Shown: positions 975 to 22,401 of the stretch, piece by piece
How the letters are laid out: every line of letters begins with the position of its first letter
Numbering within the stretch: position 1 is the stretch's first letter
Virus record (IMG/VR): IMGVR_UViG_2917403263_000004
Span: 1-37,272 of that record
DNA length: 37,272 nucleotides
Direction: 5' to 3' (one strand)
DNA from: a virus
Taxonomy: Duplodnaviria; Heunggongvirae; Uroviricota; Caudoviricetes
The notes under the pieces: model-generated
What the model saw: the letters and a program-made list of their open reading frames with translations, nothing else
Told to the model about the DNA's origin: nothing
Database searches by the model: none
Made by a program: the position numbers and the translations under genes

Positions 975-2672
975 TCAGGCGATAAGGTCGCCGTATTTTT
1001 CACGCAGACTCGTGGCCTGTTGGGCATCTGCGGCAAGTTCGCCGCTGTTCATCGGTGCGCCAGTGTTGCTGTGGGTGTGGTTTGCTGTATGTGTGGCCAG
1101 CAATTGAATCAGGTCCAGAATATCAGTCAGCAACGTCAGCAGGTTAAGCCCGGACTTTTCCCGCGAGCCGCTGCGACCAATAAACACTGTCGGGGCGGTA
1201 AACTCCAGACCGCCGTCCGCCCTGCATGTTCTGCGGCCTCCCACGTTTTCAGTCAGGTCGTGCTCAATCGTTGACGTTGCGCCTTTAAGTTTAGTCAGCA
1301 AATCCTGCGCCACCATCTGGATGTGTTCGCCGGCTGCGATCGCGTAATTGCCGGTAGTAAGGTGTTCTGTCTGGCCTGTCATCAGCTTGCTGGTACCAAG
1401 AACACTGGTTATGTCGTTTGCCTGGACTGTTGTTGTTCTGGTTGTTGTTGTGCGTTCTTCCTGGTCGCTGTTAATGGTTCGCCTGGCAGAATGCTCCCTG
1501 ATTTGCTGGTCGGTTTCCCTGTGCCAGCTTCCGTCAGTCGTGACACGCTGAAACACTTCTGCGCGCTGTTGCTGCAACTGTTCGCCGGGCTTTACATCAG
1601 GCAGGTTATGTCCGGCAGGTAAGATTTGCCTGATGACAGGTTTATCCGGGCGGCCTTCAATACTGGATATTTCCACGATGGTGCCTGCCGGTGGGTAGGC
1701 AAAACATCCCGCCTCGCTACCAGCCATCGGGACAGGGAGCGGTACTGCCGGGTAAACAGGCGTATCGCTTTTGTCGTTGCCGTTCTCATCAAGCAGCTGC
1801 ACGTCCACGGCGTAGCGTGGGCGGAAACTGTCGGCTACATCGCCCAGGGTGGCGGATTCCGTTGGTGCGACGACCCGCGCCAGTCTGGTGTGTAGTGTAC
1901 CGCTGGCCAGTTCCGGAAACTGCGTTTCCATCTGTCTGCGCAATGGTGATTTGGAAACAGGGCTACCCGTGGCGGTGAGGCGCTCCCATGTCAGTGTCAT
2001 TTTCTCGTTGTTGAGGGCTACACGGGTAATACGCCCGGCCGGAAGATTCACACCCGGCCGCACGGTTTCCATGAACATGATGTCGATGCTGTTTCCGCCG
2101 CTTTGCCCGAGTGTGTACTGTTGCGGAATATCGGGCATGGTAATGCTGGCAAACCGTGAATCAGCTGCGTTTCCCACAAATACAGAACCGTCCGGCATGG
2201 GGTGCCAGACGTAATCGCTGATACTGAATGAGCGCCCCAGCTGGCTGAGTAACTGCGTCCCGCTGCCGCTGTGGGTGATGTAGGGAGTTGGTGTGCTGAC
2301 ATAATCCGCATCTGGCGTGATAAAAACGATACCGCTTTGTCGCCCCAGATTATCGAGCACATCCCGCAACGTCGGGTGTTGCATGGAGCAGGGGAAATCA
2401 AAATCCAGCACAGCAGCTGCTTCACGGATAAAAAGGCGACGTGAGCCATTTTCGGCCGGTTGATCGCGTTCTATGTAGCCAGAGAAATAGCGCCAGGCCT
2501 CACCATTACGGCCGAGATCGATTTGCACCATTGCGCCGGCAAGGCTTTTTTCTGGTGACAGATTGTTAACAGAAACGAAGCCGCGACCGGCAGCATTCAG
2601 GGTGAGAGCAAGGCTGATATCGGCAATTTCCACCTGTTCGCCATTGATCATGCAGCGTTGTATCAATTTCAT
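975..2672 (-). CDS. Putative baseplate hub protein (gpD / Mu gp44-like N-terminus with long C-terminal extension)
   Basis: 565 aa, last gene of the tail operon. ATGA start/stop overlap with the upstream gene. The N-terminal pattern (VQIDLGRNGEAWRYFSGYIERDQ ... QHPTLRDVLDNLGRQSGIVF) resembles the gpD/late-control-D family, recalled from memory. Weak assignment. Confidence 0.45.
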   Translation of the reverse strand: MKLIQRCMINGEQVEIADISLALTLNAAGRGFVSVNNLSPEKSLAGAMVQIDLGRNGEAWRYFSGYIERDQPAENGSRRLFIREAAAVLDFDFPCSMQHPTLRDVLDNLGRQSGIVFITPDADYVSTPTPYITHSGSGTQLLSQLGRSFSISDYVWHPMPDGSVFVGNAADSRFASITMPDIPQQYTLGQSGGNSIDIMFMETVRPGVNLPAGRITRVALNNEKMTLTWERLTATGSPVSKSPLRRQMETQFPELASGTLHTRLARVVAPTESATLGDVADSFRPRYAVDVQLLDENGNDKSDTPVYPAVPLPVPMAGSEAGCFAYPPAGTIVEISSIEGRPDKPVIRQILPAGHNLPDVKPGEQLQQQRAEVFQRVTTDGSWHRETDQQIREHSARRTINSDQEERTTTTRTTTVQANDITSVLGTSKLMTGQTEHLTTGNYAIAAGEHIQMVAQDLLTKLKGATSTIEHDLTENVGGRRTCRADGGLEFTAPTVFIGRSGSREKSGLNLLTLLTDILDLIQLLATHTANHTHSNTGAPMNSGELAADAQQATSLREKYGDLIA

Positions 2673-3244
2673 GTTTTCCCTTCCTCTTTCGCGCTTCCGA
2701 TGCCAACAGCATCCAGACCAGAGCCAACGGCATCATTGATTTTTTTCCAGAATGAACTTTGCGTATTCATGCCTTTGTCTGGCACCTGTTCGCTGCCGTT
2801 CTGTGTTTGCTGTTTTGCAATTGTTTTCTGTGAGCCGCTACGTGCAGATGCTTTCTCTGGTACGCTTAATTTTTCTCTGAGGGTAAAGGTGACCTGCCAG
2901 TGCATCTTGCCCTGTTGTTCCGTGGCATCGATGCCGCCGGAAAAAACACCCTGTCGCATATTAATCGCCTTAGCGGTAGCGTTGGCGATGCGGTATGTTT
3001 TTTTGGCCCCGTTACCTTCAGTTGCTTCGGCAAGCTGAAAAATACGGGTCAGAATGGCCTCATCGTTAAAATCAATGACACCTGACACGCGCAGTTCTTT
3101 TGCCTTGTTTCCCTGCTGAGCGCTTGTGGTGCTGGTTGACTGCCCGGACATGTCTTTATCCGGTAGTTGCATGGTGGCACTGACGGTGATGTTGCGCAGC
3201 AGAATGGCCTCTCCGTCAAGCGCAAGAACAATTATCTGGGTCAT
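2669..3244 (-). CDS. Tail-operon protein of unknown function (possibly gpU-like)
   Basis: 191 aa. Translationally coupled: ATGA overlap with the downstream gene and a 29-nt overlap with the upstream gene. Position between the fibre cassettes and the hub-like gene. No confident motif. Confidence 0.4.
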   Translation of the reverse strand: MTQIIVLALDGEAILLRNITVSATMQLPDKDMSGQSTSTTSAQQGNKAKELRVSGVIDFNDEAILTRIFQLAEATEGNGAKKTYRIANATAKAINMRQGVFSGGIDATEQQGKMHWQVTFTLREKLSVPEKASARSGSQKTIAKQQTQNGSEQVPDKGMNTQSSFWKKINDAVGSGLDAVGIGSAKEEGKT

Positions 3245-3929
3245 GTAGTGCTTCCCTTAGTGATGAGAGTTCATCGCCGACAAACAGCATCACGGCGGTA
3301 AAAACCCACTCCGGGTGTGGAATGTTTTTTTGTATCAGTGCCGCAGTCTGATTAAGTGTTCCCTTGTTGCAAAAACGCCACACCGGACAGAATTGTTGTC
3401 TGAGTGCTGTCTCTCGCCCGGCAATTTCCTGCAAAATTTTATCTCTCGCTTCCCTGAACTGATGAAGTGACGATGACAATGTTTCCGGTGATGTGGCTGC
3501 TGGGGTGGCTGCCTGCGCAATGGTTGCCGCCAGTGTCATGCCACGGGTTGTCTGTGTTGACAGCGTTATCGGCTCCGGAAGTGATGTTGCCGGCCTGGCG
3601 GGGAGTTGCATTCTGCTGATGGCCAGCGAAAGCTGGCTGGAGATCATGCGGGACATTCGCCCCACCTCCGGCAACGGAAATGCACCTGAAAATTGCCTGG
3701 CGAGTGATAAAAATTCGTCAGCGGACGGGGCGCAGAGTAACAGCGCCACAACGTCCTTTTCTGTGCTTTCTGTCAGGTACGGTAAAAGTGCGGATACCGC
3801 ATTGTCCGGACTGAGATAACGCCCGGATGGTGTAATGTTTCCCGTATTTTCTGACCACGGATGAAGGCAGACCACTGAACAGCTGATGTTCATGGCTGCC
3901 GGGCGCAGAATGGCCTTTTCCCATTTCAT
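3216..3929 (-). CDS. Hypothetical tail-operon protein
   Basis: 237 aa. ATG at 3929 overlaps the stop of the upstream tail-fibre assembly gene (ATGA). Low-complexity Ala/Thr/Pro/Ser-rich middle region. No recognisable family. Confidence 0.4.
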   Translation of the reverse strand: MKWEKAILRPAAMNISCSVVCLHPWSENTGNITPSGRYLSPDNAVSALLPYLTESTEKDVVALLLCAPSADEFLSLARQFSGAFPLPEVGRMSRMISSQLSLAISRMQLPARPATSLPEPITLSTQTTRGMTLAATIAQAATPAATSPETLSSSLHQFREARDKILQEIAGRETALRQQFCPVWRFCNKGTLNQTAALIQKNIPHPEWVFTAVMLFVGDELSSLREALHDPDNCSCA

Positions 3930-4498
3930 TCTGCCTTGCCCACCTGAAATGCGCGAATTTCTGCGAGATTATTCAGTTTAGTCAGTGTGTTTTTCATCTC
4001 CCGCTGGCGCAGATAAATCTCATTGTTGCGGGTAACCTGTGCCTGAACCATTGCCGTCAGCAGTTCGTCCAGTTGCTGCACGGAGAGTTTCACCTGGCGG
4101 TTGTTCGCGTCGTTCCATGTCATAACGCTTCGTGCCGTGTCAGATTTTGCCAGCATCACCACCGGAGACAATCTGTCCACTGAAACAGGGCCGGCATCCC
4201 AGATTCGCTTTTTCCATTCGAATGTGAACGACCGCGCTTCCTGTTCTGTGCGCCATGCTTCAATTTCCCGACGCTTGGCTGTTTTTGCTGCTTCCAGTAT
4301 TTCCGGTGTCACAGTGAACGGAGCTATCTCCCCCCATTTACCGCTTTGCAGTTCCTGCCAGATTTTCTGGCCTGTTGGCGCCGTATCATCTGCCGTCGCT
4401 GTATACGGCAGTGCTTCGCCCATTCCCTCGAGCAGTACGTCACAGTCAATTGCACCACTTTCGATATAACGGGCGTTTTCGATTTTTTTTATTTTCAT
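3926..4498 (-). CDS. Tail fibre assembly / chaperone protein (cassette 2)
   Basis: 190 aa immediately downstream of tail fibre 2. Size and position are typical of Tfa/gpG-type fibre chaperones. AGGTGAT RBS. Confidence 0.55.
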   Translation of the reverse strand: MKIKKIENARYIESGAIDCDVLLEGMGEALPYTATADDTAPTGQKIWQELQSGKWGEIAPFTVTPEILEAAKTAKRREIEAWRTEQEARSFTFEWKKRIWDAGPVSVDRLSPVVMLAKSDTARSVMTWNDANNRQVKLSVQQLDELLTAMVQAQVTRNNEIYLRQREMKNTLTKLNNLAEIRAFQVGKAE

Positions 4499-4548
4499 AA
4501 ATCACCTATGCTGTACGTATAAACAAACCAATCATGACACCGAACGTA

Positions 4549-6555
4549 TCAGCCGATCCCATCATGTCGCCAGACAATGCCCGGTACCGTTCCCGGCAAA
4601 CCTGCTCCTGAATCACGAAAATAAGCAGATACGTTGCCGTCGTATACGCCGGCCACGTTACTGGTGAAATGGCCCTTAAATTCAACCGCGCTAAGACGCG
4701 AGCCAGGGTAATAATAACCCCGCATTATCCGGCGATTCTGGTCTGAAGAGTCACTTCCTCTGTATGCGGCCAGCACCAGACTGCCTGTGCCGTACCAGGC
4801 GTCTGTGGCTCCCGGAGCAATGCCTGACAGAAGATCGATAACGTTCTGAGTGGTAAATTTCAGTGATTCCCAGCCGATGAGATAGCCATTTCCACTTGTC
4901 CAGTAGCGGTTGTGATAAATATTGCCGTTAATGCCATAGAAAGTAATGACCTTTACTGTATGACGCGGGTTCGGCACTCCATACTCTGACTCAACCCAGC
5001 GAATACGAACCATTCCTTTGAACAGCACGTCCGGTATAATTTTATTGCTGCCGTCAACAAGATATTCTCCCGGTTCTGCCTTCCTTACCCACGCAAGAAA
5101 ATCATTTTCTGAGTTAAACCTGATGACCTCGTCAGGGAGAAAGATATGACCAAAGCCGAACGCGCCAGGTATAGCCAGGCGGTCTGCCGTGCGGTCATGA
5201 ATGTCACCCTGCGGCTCCAGTGTGGCAGCTTTTCCAAGCTCAAGGATCGTGTGCATGTCTGCCAGTGTTTCCTGCATCAGCAGAGTGCGCGCCATTTCTG
5301 ACAGTGTGGAAAGCGAAGCATTCCCTTCCGTATCAAAGCACAATAATTTGTCTGCCCGCGCTTTCAAATTGCTGATGGCGGTTAACACGTCACTGAGAGG
5401 TTGCTTGCCTGCCAGCGCGTTGGTGACTGTTGTTGCAAAGTTCGGGTCATTGCCCAGCGCCGCCGCCAGTTCGTTCAGCGTGTCCAGGGCTTCGGGAGAT
5501 GAATCCACCAGTGCAGCGAGCAGTTTGCGGACAAACGCCGCATTTGCGATTTCTGTCCCCGTGGCATCATCAGGCGGTGTCGGGGTTTTCGGAGCGCCGG
5601 TAAAGACCGGACTGTACAGGGTGGCTCTGGCGTTGATTAACGTTAAGAAGTACGCCTCATTTGTCTTCAGGTTATCCCAGCCAGTCAGATAACCACCGCT
5701 GAGAGGCCAGTAACGGTTGTAATAAACATCTCCGTTAACGGTGTATAAAATAATGGCTTTTGCCATATGTTGCGGTTCTGGTGGATTGCGGTTCGCCTCC
5801 AGAAACCGGATATTAATTACACCACAGTAGCCACCGGGTAACACACCATTGGCCCCCTGTACAGAATACTCTCCGGGCGTTGCCTGCTTGACCCATGCTA
5901 GGAGGTCTTTTTCTGTATCAAACCGGATAAGCTCGCCTGGCAGAAACATGTGACCAAAACCAAATGCGCCCGGTATCGCCAGCCGGCCTTCCGTGCGGTC
6001 GTAAATATCACTCTGCGGCTCCATTGTGGCGGCATTTTTCAGTCCCAGATTATCACGGGATTCCTGTTGCGCCTCTTCACCTTCTGCCGCAATTTCTGAC
6101 AGGTGGTTAGCCGTTTTCAGCATTGTTTTCAGTTCCGGATAAATATCCATCTGCCAGCTCTGTGGGGGAACCGTGATTTGTGCAGCCTGAGCCATACCAC
6201 TGTAAGTGATTGCAAAATTACGAAGAAGAGTTTCCCCCACATGTTTGTGGTGAACAGGAGTTTTTATTACACCGCATAGCGTGCCACTTGCCTGGTGAAC
6301 AAGACAAATCCAGTCATAACTGAATTCGGCGTCTTCAGTGACTGCACCGCTACATACAATGCTGTTTGGGGTCAGTTGTCCGTAGGTGAGTTTGTTTACG
6401 GTATAAGTAATTTTTTCCGGTGGAATAATATTATCTTCCGGGCTGGGGTCGCGATTCATTAGTGCAAATACGATGGCATCCGGCCGGGCAGGTAAATTGC
6501 CGGCAATGCATTTTGCAATCCATTTTTCAAATGCTTTCGTTAATAATGCGCTCAT
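4549..6555 (-). CDS. Tail fibre protein 2 (receptor-binding fibre with internal tandem domain repeat)
   Basis: 668 aa. N-terminal about 150 aa homologous to the N-terminus of fibre 1 (PARPD..VFA, EF.Y.WI.L, G.LC motifs). Contains the classic fibre motif DTLNELAAALGNDPNFATTVTNALAGKQP. Two diverged copies of a domain of about 130 aa (aa 165-297 and 433-566). Confidence 0.7.
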   Translation of the reverse strand: MSALLTKAFEKWIAKCIAGNLPARPDAIVFALMNRDPSPEDNIIPPEKITYTVNKLTYGQLTPNSIVCSGAVTEDAEFSYDWICLVHQASGTLCGVIKTPVHHKHVGETLLRNFAITYSGMAQAAQITVPPQSWQMDIYPELKTMLKTANHLSEIAAEGEEAQQESRDNLGLKNAATMEPQSDIYDRTEGRLAIPGAFGFGHMFLPGELIRFDTEKDLLAWVKQATPGEYSVQGANGVLPGGYCGVINIRFLEANRNPPEPQHMAKAIILYTVNGDVYYNRYWPLSGGYLTGWDNLKTNEAYFLTLINARATLYSPVFTGAPKTPTPPDDATGTEIANAAFVRKLLAALVDSSPEALDTLNELAAALGNDPNFATTVTNALAGKQPLSDVLTAISNLKARADKLLCFDTEGNASLSTLSEMARTLLMQETLADMHTILELGKAATLEPQGDIHDRTADRLAIPGAFGFGHIFLPDEVIRFNSENDFLAWVRKAEPGEYLVDGSNKIIPDVLFKGMVRIRWVESEYGVPNPRHTVKVITFYGINGNIYHNRYWTSGNGYLIGWESLKFTTQNVIDLLSGIAPGATDAWYGTGSLVLAAYRGSDSSDQNRRIMRGYYYPGSRLSAVEFKGHFTSNVAGVYDGNVSAYFRDSGAGLPGTVPGIVWRHDGIG

Positions 6556-7112
6556 TATTCTTTATTCTCATTAATAGTTTGCGACAGCTCCGGCCACGCG
6601 ATCGCGGCATACGCTGTTTTATCCGTAATCAGGCTAAAATCCATCACCTGCAATTCCTTTGCGTAAATACGATATGCTCTCAGCTTTTCTTTATCTTCGT
6701 CGCTGATTAACCCCAGCAACAGGTCTTTTTCCCAGTCAGCAGTTAACCGGCTTACATCCTTGAGCTTCCTCACTCGCTCATCTTCTGCCTTTTTACCGTA
6801 ATCAAATATGAATTTACCATCCCGGTAAAACCAGTAACCCGATATATCAATTCGTCGGTTAGCTGTGTTATCTGTCACTTCAATCACGCTCCTGTTTCTG
6901 GGGTTAATTGACGCAACATCTTTGCCAACCCAGGTAACTTTTCCTGTATCCAGATATTCGACTTTTAATGTGTCAGGTGAAAAATCTTTCTGAATCTCAT
7001 ACCAGTTTTCACCAGATTCTGCATACAACCACTCGACGCCATATCTTTTAGTTAACTCATATTGTTCGGCTGTTTTCGGATTGCCCGACGTAATATTTTT
7101 TAAGTGCAACAT
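6555..7112 (-). CDS. Tail fibre assembly protein (cassette 1)
   Basis: 185 aa directly after fibre 1. C-terminal region (LRAYRIYAKELQVMDFS...AWPEL) resembles the conserved Tfa C-terminus. Its stop overlaps the fibre 2 start (TAATG). Confidence 0.6.
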   Translation of the reverse strand: MLHLKNITSGNPKTAEQYELTKRYGVEWLYAESGENWYEIQKDFSPDTLKVEYLDTGKVTWVGKDVASINPRNRSVIEVTDNTANRRIDISGYWFYRDGKFIFDYGKKAEDERVRKLKDVSRLTADWEKDLLLGLISDEDKEKLRAYRIYAKELQVMDFSLITDKTAYAAIAWPELSQTINENKE

Positions 7113-7114
7113 AA

Positions 7115-8773
7115 TTACATACTCGCTACGTTATACCAGGTTCCATTAATCAGTTTCTGAAGGGGGCGGATAAACCACCCGTCGGCAGAGTTATCCCAGT
7201 CTCCGTAGCAGTAGCCACCCACACTGACATAACCCGGGGGAGCCAGGTTTGAGCCTGTACTGCCCATCTGTTGATAACCGCCAAGACGCATATCCTGTAC
7301 TCCCATTTTATTTTGCAGGTAAGATGACAGCCATCCTCCCCATGTGCTGCCGTACACGTTACCGTCAGCCGCAAGCCTTGCAGAGCCGTTGCCTGACTGT
7401 AATTCACCTGTTGCGACACTATTTCCATGCACCAGTGAACCGCCACCGGTGGTCACTTTGTGTGACATGGCAATATCACCAGTCCGCAGGTTAATTGAGA
7501 AAGGACGCAGAGGGCCAATATTGCCATTTTCACCCTGTCCTTCCGTGGTGGGGATAAGATGAAGGCTGTCTTCTGAGCGACGAAAAATCAGACCAAAGGC
7601 GCCATCGAAAATCCTCAGCGCATTAACGTCACGAATTTTCAGTTCCCCGGTCATGGTATCGCCACCTCGCTGAACGGCGCCTTCTGCCTTATCAACGGTG
7701 GGCTTTAGTCCGACGTTTTCAATAAACAGTGGTTTGTCGGGGATGTCGCTGCCGTTGCGATTTTTCGCAAGGCGGGCATTTGCGTTATCCATTGCGATTT
7801 TTACCGCTTTTGACGTGGCGGCACGGTCTTCTGCATCACTGTCAGTGGCGTTACTGTACTGAGCGAATCCTTTTTCGTTCAGTGTGGCATCCGGGTGCCT
7901 GCGGGATTTTTCGTGTTCTGCCAGTGCATTGCTTTGTTCTTCGTCGGGTGTCTCCGGACGTAAATCCTGTGAGCCGTCTGCTGTCAGTTTTGCAAGCGGT
8001 GCAACAAAATGCCGAAAGCCATTCCCGTCTGTGTAGGATGCATGTTCCGGGCGGGCGCTGAATGTGAAAACCGTATTCCATTCGCCAGTAACAAATCCCT
8101 GCCAGCTTGCATCAATCCAGATGGTGTCCCCGACCGTTGCGCGCAGGCTGTAAGGTTCGCGCAGACTGACGCGCAAACCTCCCACATAACCAATCCCCGC
8201 GGCAACAATGGCGGTGCCGTTCTGATAGCTCACCTGAAAACCGTCCTCCAGAAAAGCGGCTTCACCGTAGTGATCAAACGCCAGCAGTCTGCGGGCTTCA
8301 TCCATTCCCGCCAGGCGGGCAGTGAAATCAATCTGCCAGACATCAGCACTGACATCGATATGCATCGCTGCTGCCGCACCGTCAAACTCCATGGAAAACG
8401 TGCGGATCAGATTGTTTCCCTGTACACCGTTCGCGGTTTTAATTTTTTGCTGGCAGGGGGTGTGCGCAATCATACAGAGCACGCCGCTTTCTTCGTTCAG
8501 CAGGCCAATCCAGTTGTATTCGAAGTCGCCGATTGTGGTATCCAGAATGATGGAAAATGCGGTTGCATTCGGTGACAGGAGACCGTACTGGGTGACCGGT
8601 GCGCGATACTGGATCAGGGTTTCATCAGGGAGCGTTTCGTCGCGGGGGATCTCTGCAGACTCATCCAGTCCCGGAATATATGCAAAAACAAATGTATCCG
8701 GGCGCGCAGGTTTCCCGCTGATGATCTGATTTGCGCACCAGTGTTCGTATTGTTCAGTAATAATCGTACTCAT
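7115..8773 (-). CDS. Tail fibre protein 1
   Basis: 552 aa. Contains AEHEKSRRHPDATLNEKGFAQYSNATDSDAEDRAATSKAVK, matching the conserved P2 gpH / T4 gp37-type fibre motif (AEHEQSRRHPDASLTAKGF...). ATGA overlap with the upstream baseplate gene. Confidence 0.75.
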   Translation of the reverse strand: MSTIITEQYEHWCANQIISGKPARPDTFVFAYIPGLDESAEIPRDETLPDETLIQYRAPVTQYGLLSPNATAFSIILDTTIGDFEYNWIGLLNEESGVLCMIAHTPCQQKIKTANGVQGNNLIRTFSMEFDGAAAAMHIDVSADVWQIDFTARLAGMDEARRLLAFDHYGEAAFLEDGFQVSYQNGTAIVAAGIGYVGGLRVSLREPYSLRATVGDTIWIDASWQGFVTGEWNTVFTFSARPEHASYTDGNGFRHFVAPLAKLTADGSQDLRPETPDEEQSNALAEHEKSRRHPDATLNEKGFAQYSNATDSDAEDRAATSKAVKIAMDNANARLAKNRNGSDIPDKPLFIENVGLKPTVDKAEGAVQRGGDTMTGELKIRDVNALRIFDGAFGLIFRRSEDSLHLIPTTEGQGENGNIGPLRPFSINLRTGDIAMSHKVTTGGGSLVHGNSVATGELQSGNGSARLAADGNVYGSTWGGWLSSYLQNKMGVQDMRLGGYQQMGSTGSNLAPPGYVSVGGYCYGDWDNSADGWFIRPLQKLINGTWYNVASM

Positions 8774-18464: not shown

Positions 18465-19478
18465 TCAGGCGATGGTGACCGCAGACTCATCCACGGCAGC
18501 ATATAAATCCGGATCGCCCAGGGCGTACCCCTCATAACGCCAGTATGAGTTTTCGAACTGTTTGCGATCGCCCACATCTTCCGCTTTACGACGGCGGGAA
18601 CCCTTCAGCGTCAGGATCTGCAGATTTGGCAGCACGGTCACCACCATACGCTTGCCCGGCATAAACGGCGGAATGATGGCCTTGCGGCCCGCAATGTTCT
18701 TCGTCAGCAACTGTGCGGCCACTTTTTCGGTAGGCTTGTCCTCTTTGTTGTAGAGGCGCAGCTCCTCGGCGGCCACAAGGTCAGCGCCGACCAGCACGGT
18801 GAGGCGTGGATCGTTGTGATACTGCGCCGGGATGTAAGTGCGGATCAGGTCAGATGCCATGGCATCCAGTCCCACGTAATCGCCGCCTTCACCCAGGGTA
18901 ACGGCGTCTGTCAGAATACGGGAGGTATTTCCAGGCTGTTCTCCCCACTCACGGGCGATTTCATGCCAGCCGATGTTGACGTCCTCGCCGTTCGGATGGC
19001 TTTCAGGATCGGAGTTTTCCGCTGCTGTTTTACCGTTAAAGCCAATGCGCAGCATATCCAGCGCAAAGTTGGTAACGGCGGCGGAGTTCATCAGGTTGAA
19101 AAATTCCTGCGGGCTGCCGGCATTCGCCCAGATGGCGAGTTGTTCCCAGGTGATCACGCAGCAGGAATCAGTTTCAACGAGTTTAAATTCGTTGCCTTTG
19201 ATGCCTGAACCTTTGGCGAAACGACCGCTTTTCACGCGACCGGTGCGCAGCGTGGATTCGCCAACGGTGACGACCTGTCCCTGCGGGTGCGGAACGTCCA
19301 TGCAGGTGATGAAACTCAGAAACTCGGTGCTTTCCAGTAGTGCTTTACGCAGGGCAATGCTGCGCGGTTCGGTCAGGGAAAAAGTGCGATCACCTGAGAC
19401 AGCGCAGTCACTGAATGTTTTTTGCAGTTCGCTGAGGTACTGATTAACCAGCTTTTGTGCTTCTGGTGTCATGTTCAT
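18465..19478 (-). CDS. Major capsid protein (P2 gpN family)
   Basis: 337 aa. Size and position after the scaffold gene match the P2 gpN family. Confidence 0.8.
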   Translation of the reverse strand: MNMTPEAQKLVNQYLSELQKTFSDCAVSGDRTFSLTEPRSIALRKALLESTEFLSFITCMDVPHPQGQVVTVGESTLRTGRVKSGRFAKGSGIKGNEFKLVETDSCCVITWEQLAIWANAGSPQEFFNLMNSAAVTNFALDMLRIGFNGKTAAENSDPESHPNGEDVNIGWHEIAREWGEQPGNTSRILTDAVTLGEGGDYVGLDAMASDLIRTYIPAQYHNDPRLTVLVGADLVAAEELRLYNKEDKPTEKVAAQLLTKNIAGRKAIIPPFMPGKRMVVTVLPNLQILTLKGSRRRKAEDVGDRKQFENSYWRYEGYALGDPDLYAAVDESAVTIA

Positions 19479-20613: not shown

Positions 20614-22401
20614 ATGGCTTATTCTGATGAAGTTATTGCCGCAGCAAAATCACTCTATCTGAAAAGGCACACCCCAAAAGAAATACAAAAGAAGCTCGGA
20701 CTGAACAGTCCGCGAATTGTTTATTATTGGGCGACAAAGTTTGAGTGGTACACACAGCTTAATACTGAAGGCGTGGAGGATGTTATCGCCCGTCGTCTCG
20801 CTGTACTGGCGGAGCGTGACCATAAAACGCCGGAAGAACACGATGAACTCGATCGCCTGATTGGCCACCACGTCAAACTGATGTCGGTCAGAAACAAGCA
20901 CACGGAGCGAATGGCTGAGATTGCACGAATGGGTGCGGACATTCCCCAGCCTGGTCGTTATGGAAAAGAAGAACGCGGAGAAAAAGGTGCAGGTAAGAAA
21001 GAGCGCCCCCGTAAAGCTAATGACGTTTCCGGACTGACTGCTGAAAGTTTTGAGCCGTTTACCAAAAAACTGTTCGCTTATCAGTTGCGCCTGCGTGAAA
21101 ACAAATTCCGCCGTGTACGCAACCTGCTTAAATCCCGCCAGATTGGGGCGACGTATTACTTCGCGTTTGAGGCGTTTGAAGATGCGGCATTAACCGGCGA
21201 CACACAGATATTTTTATCGGCATCAAAACGTCAGGCCGAAGTGTTCCGCACCTATATCGTTAAGATTGCACAAACAGAGTTTGGCATTCCCATTAAAGGC
21301 AATCCGGTTAAGTTAAGTAATCTGGCTGAACTGTATTTTCTGGCGACCAACAGTAACACAGCGCAGTCAAACAGCGGCCACCTGTATATTGATGAATACC
21401 TGTGGATCCCCGGTTTTCGCCGTCTCAATGAAGTGGCATCAGGGATGGCCACCCATAAACACTGGCGCATTACCTATTTCTCCACGCCGTCATCCAAAAC
21501 ACACCAGGGTTACCCGTTCTGGTCTGGCGATGAATGGCGCAAAGGCGATCCGAAACGAAAAGGGGTTGAGTTTCCGTCCTTTGATGAGCTGCGCGATGGT
21601 GGGCGTGAATGTCCGGATGGTCAGTGGCGCTATGTGGTTACGCTGGAAGATGCCATTGCCGGCGGCTTTAACCTTGCTGACATCAACGAGCTGCGCGAGC
21701 GATACAACGAAACAGCGTTCAATATGCTGTTTATGTGTGTGTTTGTGGATGACAAAGAGAGCGTCTTTAAATTCGATGATCTTGTGCGTTGTGGTGTTGA
21801 TGTCAGTACGTGGGAGGATTTTCACCCGGAAGATCCCATGCCATTTGGTAACCGTGAGGTTTGGGGCGGCTTTGACCCTGCGCGCTCCGGCGATAACGCC
21901 ACATTTGTTGTGCTGGCACCGCCGCTGGTTGCGGCAGAACGATTCCGCGTGCTGGAAAAACACCACTGGCGCAGCATGTCATTCCAGTTTATGGCAGAGC
22001 GTATCCGCAGCATTAAGGCACGCTATAACATGACGTTTATCGGCATTGACGTCACCGGTCTTGGCTACGGTGTCTTTGAACTGGTTCAGGGATTTGCCCG
22101 CCGTGAAACAGTGGCCATTCATTACAGCGTGGAATCCAAAAACCGTCTGGTGATGAAGATGCTGGATCTGATTTACGCCAACCGTATTGAGTGGGATGAG
22201 GAAGCCACGGATATTCCGGCATCGTTCCTGGCCATTCGTCAGGAATCCACCAACAGCGGCAATAAAGTCACTTTCACCGCCGAACGTAGCGAAGAAACCG
22301 GGCACTCTGACATCTTCTTTGCCATAGCTCATGCCGCAAGTAATGAACCCCTGAACTATAAGCACAAGCGCAAATCAACATGGATCCTGTCAGATGAGTA
22401 A
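20614..22401 (+). CDS. Terminase large (ATPase) subunit (gpP-like)
   Basis: 595 aa (P2 gpP is about 590 aa). Divergent from O and followed by the portal gene with an 8-nt overlap. Confidence 0.9.
   Translation: MAYSDEVIAAAKSLYLKRHTPKEIQKKLGLNSPRIVYYWATKFEWYTQLNTEGVEDVIARRLAVLAERDHKTPEEHDELDRLIGHHVKLMSVRNKHTERMAEIARMGADIPQPGRYGKEERGEKGAGKKERPRKANDVSGLTAESFEPFTKKLFAYQLRLRENKFRRVRNLLKSRQIGATYYFAFEAFEDAALTGDTQIFLSASKRQAEVFRTYIVKIAQTEFGIPIKGNPVKLSNLAELYFLATNSNTAQSNSGHLYIDEYLWIPGFRRLNEVASGMATHKHWRITYFSTPSSKTHQGYPFWSGDEWRKGDPKRKGVEFPSFDELRDGGRECPDGQWRYVVTLEDAIAGGFNLADINELRERYNETAFNMLFMCVFVDDKESVFKFDDLVRCGVDVSTWEDFHPEDPMPFGNREVWGGFDPARSGDNATFVVLAPPLVAAERFRVLEKHHWRSMSFQFMAERIRSIKARYNMTFIGIDVTGLGYGVFELVQGFARRETVAIHYSVESKNRLVMKMLDLIYANRIEWDEEATDIPASFLAIRQESTNSGNKVTFTAERSEETGHSDIFFAIAHAASNEPLNYKHKRKSTWILSDE

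What the first reader, a model, noticed from the sequence alone, without database searches (positions are those of the whole stretch)
4858..6063. Internal tandem duplication of a domain of about 130 aa within tail fibre 2
Residues about 165-297 and 433-566 of the 668-aa fibre are diverged copies: EPQSDIYDRTEGRLAIPGAFGFGHMFLPGELIRF...NRYWPLSGGYLTGWDNLK versus EPQGDIHDRTADRLAIPGAFGFGHIFLPDEVIRF...NRYWTSGNGYLIGWESLK. They are separated by the canonical fibre linker motif (DTLNELAAALGNDPNFATTVTNALAGKQP). A repeated putative binding domain in one fibre is uncommon and could bind two ligands or bind one more strongly. I do not recognise the GAFGFGH-containing domain.
Basis: seen in the sequence. Interest (0 to 1): 0.5.

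Follow-up and report, generated by a model that had tools for sequence, protein, structure and literature searches.

The report
Repeated knob domain in prophage tail fibre
The duplicated domain is real, but it is a bead-like building block that enterobacterial prophage tail fibres commonly carry in one to three copies, so the duplication is ordinary; separately, this copy of the gene has a one-base frameshift that removes the end of its tip.

Summary
In the 668-aa fibre (4549..6555, minus strand), aa 152-311 and 418-580 are 48% identical (BLASTP E 7e-54). A 106-aa linker carrying the DTLNELAAALGNDPNFATT motif separates them.

The reading that this is uncommon does not hold. Of the 120 closest homologs, 96 have three copies, 19 have two and 5 have one. 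At the same locus in related phages there are 1-copy (415 aa) and 2-copy (683 aa) alleles that differ by exactly one 804-nt period.

Internal copies are conserved (87-90% identity). The distal copy (65%) and the roughly 100-aa tip (60%) are variable, and a DUF4376 gene always follows the tip. The most likely layout is a conserved shaft bead (copy 1) plus a specificity module (copy 2 and the tip).

An extra G at 4587/4588 frameshifts the last 26 residues.

Verdict: a new member of a known kind, of low to moderate interest.

The parts
4549..6555 (-). Tail fibre 2 ORF as it reads in the window (668 aa); the C-terminus is frameshifted
6145..6549 (-). N-terminal baseplate-attachment domain (aa 3-137), Pfam PF12571 Phage_tail_fib
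   Evidence: E 6.7e-07, 29.9 bits against a cut-off of 23
5623..6102 (-). Repeat copy 1 (aa 152-311): helical leader, the conserved Q.DI.DRT.GRLA.PGAFGFG neck, an alpha/beta knob core and an exit helix. This is the internal, conserved subtype.
5305..5622 (-). Inter-copy linker (aa 312-417). It contains SPVFTGAPKTPTPPDD and the DTLNELAAALGNDPNFATTVTNALAGKQP motif (5398-5484).
   Evidence: 9d93 gp4, E 5e-11; DNA matches to P2 gpH and other fibres
4816..5304 (-). Repeat copy 2 (aa 418-580), the distal, variable subtype that lies next to the tip
4506..4815 (-). C-terminal tip, about 100 aa and beta-rich. The intact frame would end at the TAG at 4506-4508; the window's frame ends at 4549.
4587..4588 (-). 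Site of the one-base (G) insertion that frameshifts the last 26 codons
   Evidence: alignment with L014 and L015
3926..4498 (-). DUF4376 gene (190 aa), the probable cognate assembly or chaperone protein of the knob-plus-tip module
   Evidence: PF14301, E 1.4e-13; phrog_1141; it follows the tip directly in all 15 complete loci
5044..5233 (.). DNA-level direct repeat D1, partnered with 5848-6037 (75% identity, spacing 804 nt = one cassette period)

Best explanation
Fibre 2 is a modular tail fibre assembled from portable parts. They are a P2/HP1-type N-terminal anchor (aa 1-150), an internal knob cassette (copy 1), a helical linker with the widely shared DTLNELAAALG motif, a distal knob (copy 2), and a beta-rich tip of about 100 aa whose folding partner is probably the DUF4376 protein encoded next to it. 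The repeated unit is a knob-type globular fibre domain. Copy 1 is a conserved shaft bead that, together with the linker, lengthens the fibre by one cassette. Copy 2 and the tip form the variable host-recognition end. Copy number (1, 2 or 3) changes by recombination between the repeated cassettes or linkers, and whole distal blocks are exchanged between P2-like fibres and lambdoid side tail fibres. Shown here: the repeat, its distribution, copy-number variation at one locus, the conservation gradient, and linkage to DUF4376. Inferred: the trimeric bead structure, the spacer role of copy 1, receptor binding by copy 2 plus the tip, and the chaperone role of DUF4376.
Confidence: 0.6

Rival explanations
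1. This is a bivalent fibre. Both knob copies are independent ligand-binding domains, so one fibre binds two different surface structures or binds one structure with higher avidity.
For: Knob-type domains are described as common in saccharide-binding fibres and spikes, and Knob2 of R-pyocin fibres is implicated in binding (PMC11871291, PMC12625404). The structural neighbours are mostly receptor-binding proteins. The two copies have diverged to 48-51% identity, which would allow different specificities.
Against: Internal copies are 87-90% identical across fibres whose distal ends differ by up to 73%, and they form their own positional subtype. They therefore do not behave like host-range determinants. 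Natural 1-copy alleles at the same locus keep only the distal-type C-terminal half and the tip. No binding data exist.
Confidence: 0.15
2. Copy 1 is a fossil of recombination. It is the leftover knob of an older distal end, stranded when a new linker, knob and tip block was appended by recombination at the conserved linker, and it has no function of its own.
For: The linker is the only segment with DNA-level matches in many unrelated phages, including P2 gpH and Gordonia phages, which fits a recombination hotspot. 1-copy alleles exist at the same locus. The single unit of P0046 is a mosaic, with a copy-1-type leader and a copy-2-type C-terminal part.
Against: A relic should decay or be lost. 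Instead, internal copies are the best-conserved part of these fibres. They have a dedicated exit helix and junction shared across P2-like and lambdoid fibres, and they keep all the invariant unit residues. They also lack any remnant of the roughly 100-aa tip.
Confidence: 0.15
3. In this particular genome fibre 2 is a dead gene. The frameshift removes the last conserved strand of the tip, so the fibre does not assemble and the duplication has no current function.
For: A one-base insertion at 4587/4588 replaces YRALSGDMMGSADTFGVMIGLFIRTA with VPGIVWRHDGIG. The lost segment includes nearly invariant positions of the tip (A218, L219, G221, F237, R239 in alignment A3).
Against: It could be a sequencing or assembly error, since only one contig carries this exact protein. 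The rest of the ORF and the downstream DUF4376 gene are intact. This explanation concerns the state of this one copy, not what the duplication is.
Confidence: 0.35

Closest known systems
R-type pyocin receptor-binding fibre (P. aeruginosa PA0620; PDB 6cl6, 6cu2): Knob1, connector, Knob2, lectin-like foot
   Different: There is no detectable sequence similarity. The unit here is larger, about 120-160 aa against roughly 85 aa per pyocin knob (PMC12625404). The knobs here are separated by a 106-aa helical linker, compared with a connector of about 70 aa. The tip did not match the pyocin foot. The assembly partner here is a DUF4376 protein.
Lambdoid prophage side tail fibres of E. coli, Salmonella and Citrobacter (PF08400 N-terminus, about 1030-1047 aa; e.g. 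P0003, P0018, P0099; phage Rac-SA53 tail3)
   Same: They carry the same cassette family, the same linker, the same type of tip and the same downstream DUF4376 gene. P0003 is 71% identical over 68% of the query, its internal copy is 83% identical to window copy 1, and L001 shows the same arrangement.
   Different: They have a different N-terminal anchor (PF08400 rather than PF12571) and usually three copies, two of them directly adjacent.
T4 proximal long tail fibre gp34 (PDB 5nxh, 4uxe)
   Different: There is no sequence similarity, and the domains sit in the proximal half-fibre, not next to a receptor-binding tip.
Staphylococcal myovirus receptor-binding proteins (phage K gp144, 5m9f; phi812, 9euf)
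   Different: The hosts are Gram-positive, the overall architecture is unrelated, and identity is 11-17% at high rmsd.

Membership tests
Pyocin-knob-type fibre domain (R-pyocin Knob1/Knob2) | Sequence match to solved or curated knob domains | tested here: not met
   A profile of 20 units against all PDB sequences found no fibre hit at E up to 10. No Pfam hit at E up to 10 and no NCBIfam hit.
Pyocin-knob-type fibre domain (R-pyocin Knob1/Knob2) | Fold similarity to the knob domains of 6cl6/6cu2 | tested here: inconclusive
Pyocin-knob-type fibre domain (R-pyocin Knob1/Knob2) | Forms a trimeric bead around the fibre axis | not testable with these tools
   Only monomer prediction was available.
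Pyocin-knob-type fibre domain (R-pyocin Knob1/Knob2) | Serial knobs followed by a small C-terminal binding domain | tested here: met
   There are two knobs and then a beta-rich tip of about 100 aa. The tip of 95-125 aa follows the last knob in nearly all representatives. The tip fold itself was not matched to the lectin-like foot.
P2/HP1-type tail fibre (PF12571 Phage_tail_fib N-terminal domain) | N-terminal domain above Pfam's gathering score | tested here: met
   aa 3-137, 29.9 bits against a cut-off of 23, E 6.7e-07.
P2/HP1-type tail fibre (PF12571 Phage_tail_fib N-terminal domain) | Location in a myovirus baseplate and fibre gene block | tested here: met
   Baseplate_J, Tail_P2_I and HP1_ORF34 genes flank the two fibre genes.
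PHROG 2636 (tail fiber protein) | Profile match | tested here: met
   E 3.6e-101 in two stretches; the best covers aa 308-656.
Lambdoid side tail fibre Stf (PF08400 N-terminal domain) | PF08400 N-terminal domain | tested here: not met
   Only PF12571 was found in the window protein. The similarity to Stf proteins begins after about aa 145.
Phage tail fibre repeat PF03406 (Phage_fiber_2) | Pfam match | tested here: not met
   No match in fibre 2 at E up to 0.01, although fibre 1 has one at aa 297-338.

The most novel reading that the evidence does not exclude
The internal knob is a working second binding site, for example for a conserved LPS-core or ECA sugar. Cassette copy number (1-3) at this locus would then be a recombination-driven switch that sets both the reach and the valency of the fibre, giving related prophages different abilities to penetrate O-antigen or capsule layers.
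Probability: 0.12. Interest if true: 0.5.

Novelty: new member of a known kind. Interest (0 to 1): 0.22.

Why it matters
The practical value is modest. First, the work defines an uncurated knob-type fibre domain restricted to Enterobacterales: 127 cluster representatives among 1.84 billion, with no Pfam, NCBIfam or PDB entry. It also gives the domain's boundaries and two positional subtypes. Second, natural alleles with 1, 2 and 3 cassettes exist at one locus, which is a ready-made test of whether fibre length or internal knobs affect adsorption. Third, the knob, tip and DUF4376 gene form one portable unit, and the linker is the natural junction, which helps anyone designing chimeric fibres for E. 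coli, Shigella or Salmonella. None of this changes how fibres are understood.

Full report
**The observation**

The ORF at 4549..6555 on the minus strand encodes a 668-aa protein. It is identical to 'phage tail protein [Escherichia sp. E3659]'. Comparing aa 141-330 with aa 401-668 gives one strong alignment, aa 152-311 against 418-580. It has 48% identity, 66% positives and E 7e-54.

The repeat is also visible in the DNA. It is 77% identical over 172 nt and 70% over 104 nt. The repeat finder reports 5044-5233 and 5848-6037, 75% identical, with spacing 804 nt. A six-frame HMM scan finds exactly these two copies in the window and none in the neighbouring fibre 1.

The finding's coordinates correspond to aa 165-566. 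The quoted strings begin at aa 179 and 447 and end at 297 and 566. The linker motif is at aa 358-386. The only correction is that the repeat extends about 27 residues further towards the N-terminus than the quoted strings, because it includes a helical leader.

**Anatomy**

- Residues 3-137 are the Pfam PF12571 tail-fibre N-terminal domain.
- Each repeat unit has four parts. They are a helical leader (LSE......LELK.AAT), a highly conserved neck (Q.DI.DRT.GRLA.PGAFGFG) that holds most of the invariant residues of the family (Q30, D35, A42, G45, G48, G50), an alpha/beta core and an exit helix.
- Between the copies lies a 106-aa linker. It contains SPVFTGAPKTPTPPDD and the DTLNELAAALGNDPNFATT motif.
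- The linker is the only part of the protein with a PDB sequence match (9d93 gp4 tail collar fibres, E 5e-11). It is also the only part with DNA matches in unrelated phages such as P2 gpH and Gordonia phages.
- After copy 2 comes a tip of about 100 aa.

**What the unit is**

The unit matches nothing in Pfam, NCBIfam or PDB by sequence, even as a 20-sequence profile. A profile search of 1.84 billion cluster representatives finds only 127 proteins, 67 of them at E below 1e-30. A scan of one genome per species finds it only in E. coli, Shigella, Salmonella and Yersinia. tblastn finds it in fibres of very different phages: lambdoid Rac-SA53, phiP27, the jumbo phage Goslar, Av-05 and an Actinobacillus phage.

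- phi812 receptor-binding proteins
- the AS12 and Belisarius tailspikes
- phage K gp144
- T4 gp34
- Pa193 gp47
- the phi11 receptor-binding protein
- the Mu fibre

The best Foldseek hit is 6cl6, at probability 0.85 and E 0.065. A second model, of the distal knob plus tip from the intact homolog P0002, gave the same list. The scores are modest, but the hits are exclusively fibre proteins. I read the unit as a knob-type fibre domain. I do not claim it is a member of the pyocin-knob sequence family, because that test failed at the sequence level.

**Is a repeated domain uncommon?**

No. An HMM of the two copies was run against the 120 best homologs. It finds three copies in 96, two in 19 and one in 5. 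That sample is biased towards multi-copy proteins, because the query itself has two copies. Among representatives clustered at 50% identity with near-complete units, 68 are single-copy, 13 double and 1 triple.

Two spacings occur: directly adjacent copies, and copies separated by the linker of about 107 aa, as here.

The closest intact relative, P0002 (683 aa, two copies), and P0046 (415 aa, one copy) lie in the same gene order as the window. That order is fibre 1, Caudo_TAP, fibre 2, DUF4376, a 237-aa ORF, HP1_ORF34 and a 565-aa ORF. The two alleles differ by 268 aa = 804 nt, exactly one repeat period. PF12571-type fibres with three copies also exist (P0006 and P0008, 810-811 aa). Cassette number is therefore polymorphic at one locus.

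**Age and subtypes**

The duplication is old. Window copy 1 is 85% identical to copy 1 of P0002 and 83-84% identical to internal copies of the lambdoid fibres P0003 and P0051. It is only 51% identical to its own copy 2.

Across 326 units in multi-copy proteins, the nearest unit in another protein nearly always belongs to the same positional class. There were 210 internal-to-internal matches, 86 distal-to-distal matches and 3 internal/distal cross-matches. Paralogs within one protein average 37% identity.

The single unit of P0046 has a copy-1-type leader and a copy-2-type C-terminal part. That is the pattern expected if recombination between copies removes or adds a cassette.

**Which part recognises the host**

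In 82 full-length three-copy fibres, mean pairwise identity falls along the protein:

| Part | Mean pairwise identity |
|---|---|
| Internal copies | 87-90% |
| Linker | 85% |
| Distal copy | 65% (minimum 27%) |
| Tip | 60% |

In nearly every complete representative, the last knob is followed by 95-125 residues. In all 15 complete loci examined, covering lambdoid and P2-like phages from E. coli, Shigella, Salmonella and Yersinia, a DUF4376 gene starts a few bases after the tip. That gene is 60-84% identical to the window's.

The knob, tip and DUF4376 gene therefore travel together as one module. The distal knob plus tip is the variable end, and the internal knob is a conserved shaft element. 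This parallels published descriptions of R-pyocin-type fibres, in which Knob1 is conserved while Knob2 and the foot vary and are implicated in binding (PMC12625404, PMC11871291). It also fits the description of knob domains as mobile pseudo-domains among fibre classes (PMC12143355).

The receptor-binding, spacer and chaperone roles are inferences. No member of this family has been tested.

**Frameshift**

The window's protein ends ...GLPGT-VPGIVWRHDGIG. Every intact homolog continues ...PGTYRALSG...VMIGLFIR.A. Another frame of the window reads YRALSGDMMGSADTFGVMIGLFIRTA and stops at 4506-4508. That stop is 7 nt before the DUF4376 start codon, and an AGGTGA Shine-Dalgarno sequence overlaps it.

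DNA alignment with L014 and L015 shows a single extra G at 4587/4588. The lost segment contains nearly invariant tip positions. This is either an assembly error or a real inactivation of fibre 2 in this prophage. The sequence alone cannot decide between them.

**Verdict**

The repeat is real and well delimited, but it is a normal feature of a modular fibre family rather than an unusual duplication. The domain is uncurated and narrowly distributed, and it most resembles knob domains of other fibres. The idea that two copies mean two binding sites is not excluded, but the conservation pattern argues against it for the internal copy. I rate this a new member of a known kind, with low to moderate interest.

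Noticed in passing
window 4587-4588 (minus strand); restored frame runs to 4506: A single extra G, relative to the orthologous loci L014 and L015, frameshifts the last 26 codons of fibre 2. The annotated 668-aa protein is a truncated form of a 682-683-aa protein and lacks the conserved ...YRALSG...GLFIRxA end. This is either a sequencing error or a real inactivation.
   Followed up: yes
window 3926-8773: Two tail-fibre genes lie in tandem, both with the PF12571 N-terminal anchor. Each is followed by a different accessory gene: fibre 1 (7115-8773) by Caudo_TAP (6555-7112), and fibre 2 by DUF4376 (3926-4498). The same pair is conserved in L014-L016. How two fibres with the same anchor type share the baseplate is not addressed here.
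   Followed up: partly
window 3926-4498; loci L001, L003-L016: The DUF4376 gene directly follows the knob-plus-tip module in every complete locus. Apart from L014, it is more conserved (60-73% identity) than the tip it presumably serves (36-64%). That is unusual for a fibre and chaperone pair, where both normally co-vary.
   Followed up: partly
window 975-2672 and 3216-3929: Two ORFs, of 565 aa and 237 aa, have no Pfam match. They flank the HP1_ORF34 baseplate gene (2669-3244) and are conserved in the same positions in L014-L016 (the 237-aa ORF is 89-97% identical).
   Followed up: no
whole window: The prophage is a mosaic. It has a P2-family capsid and terminase (18465-19478, 20614-22401) and an HP1-like tail and baseplate (HP1_ORF34, DUF2586, DUF2590). 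Its replication and partition module is about 96% identical to phage P88 and Xuanwuvirus, while the structural genes have no close match among sequenced phages.
   Followed up: partly
loci L003-L011: E. coli ECMA0423 has five separate chromosomal loci with a knob, tip and DUF4376 module, and Shigella flexneri SFBU1023 has four. Some of these loci have an upstream Caudo_TAP gene and some do not, which suggests many prophage remnants carry this module.
   Followed up: no
homologs P0020, P0024, P0026 and others: Many lambdoid side-tail-fibre homologs of about 1030-1047 aa are named 'shikimate transporter' in public records. This appears to be a propagated misannotation.
   Followed up: no
representatives P0206, P0207, P0232, P0235: Weaker profile hits match only the leader and/or the start of the neck of the unit (within profile positions 1-55). 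They occur 4-7 times per protein in large proteins of 1000-1800 aa. The leader and GAFGFG neck may be a separate, more widespread repeated fibre motif, independent of the knob core.
   Followed up: no
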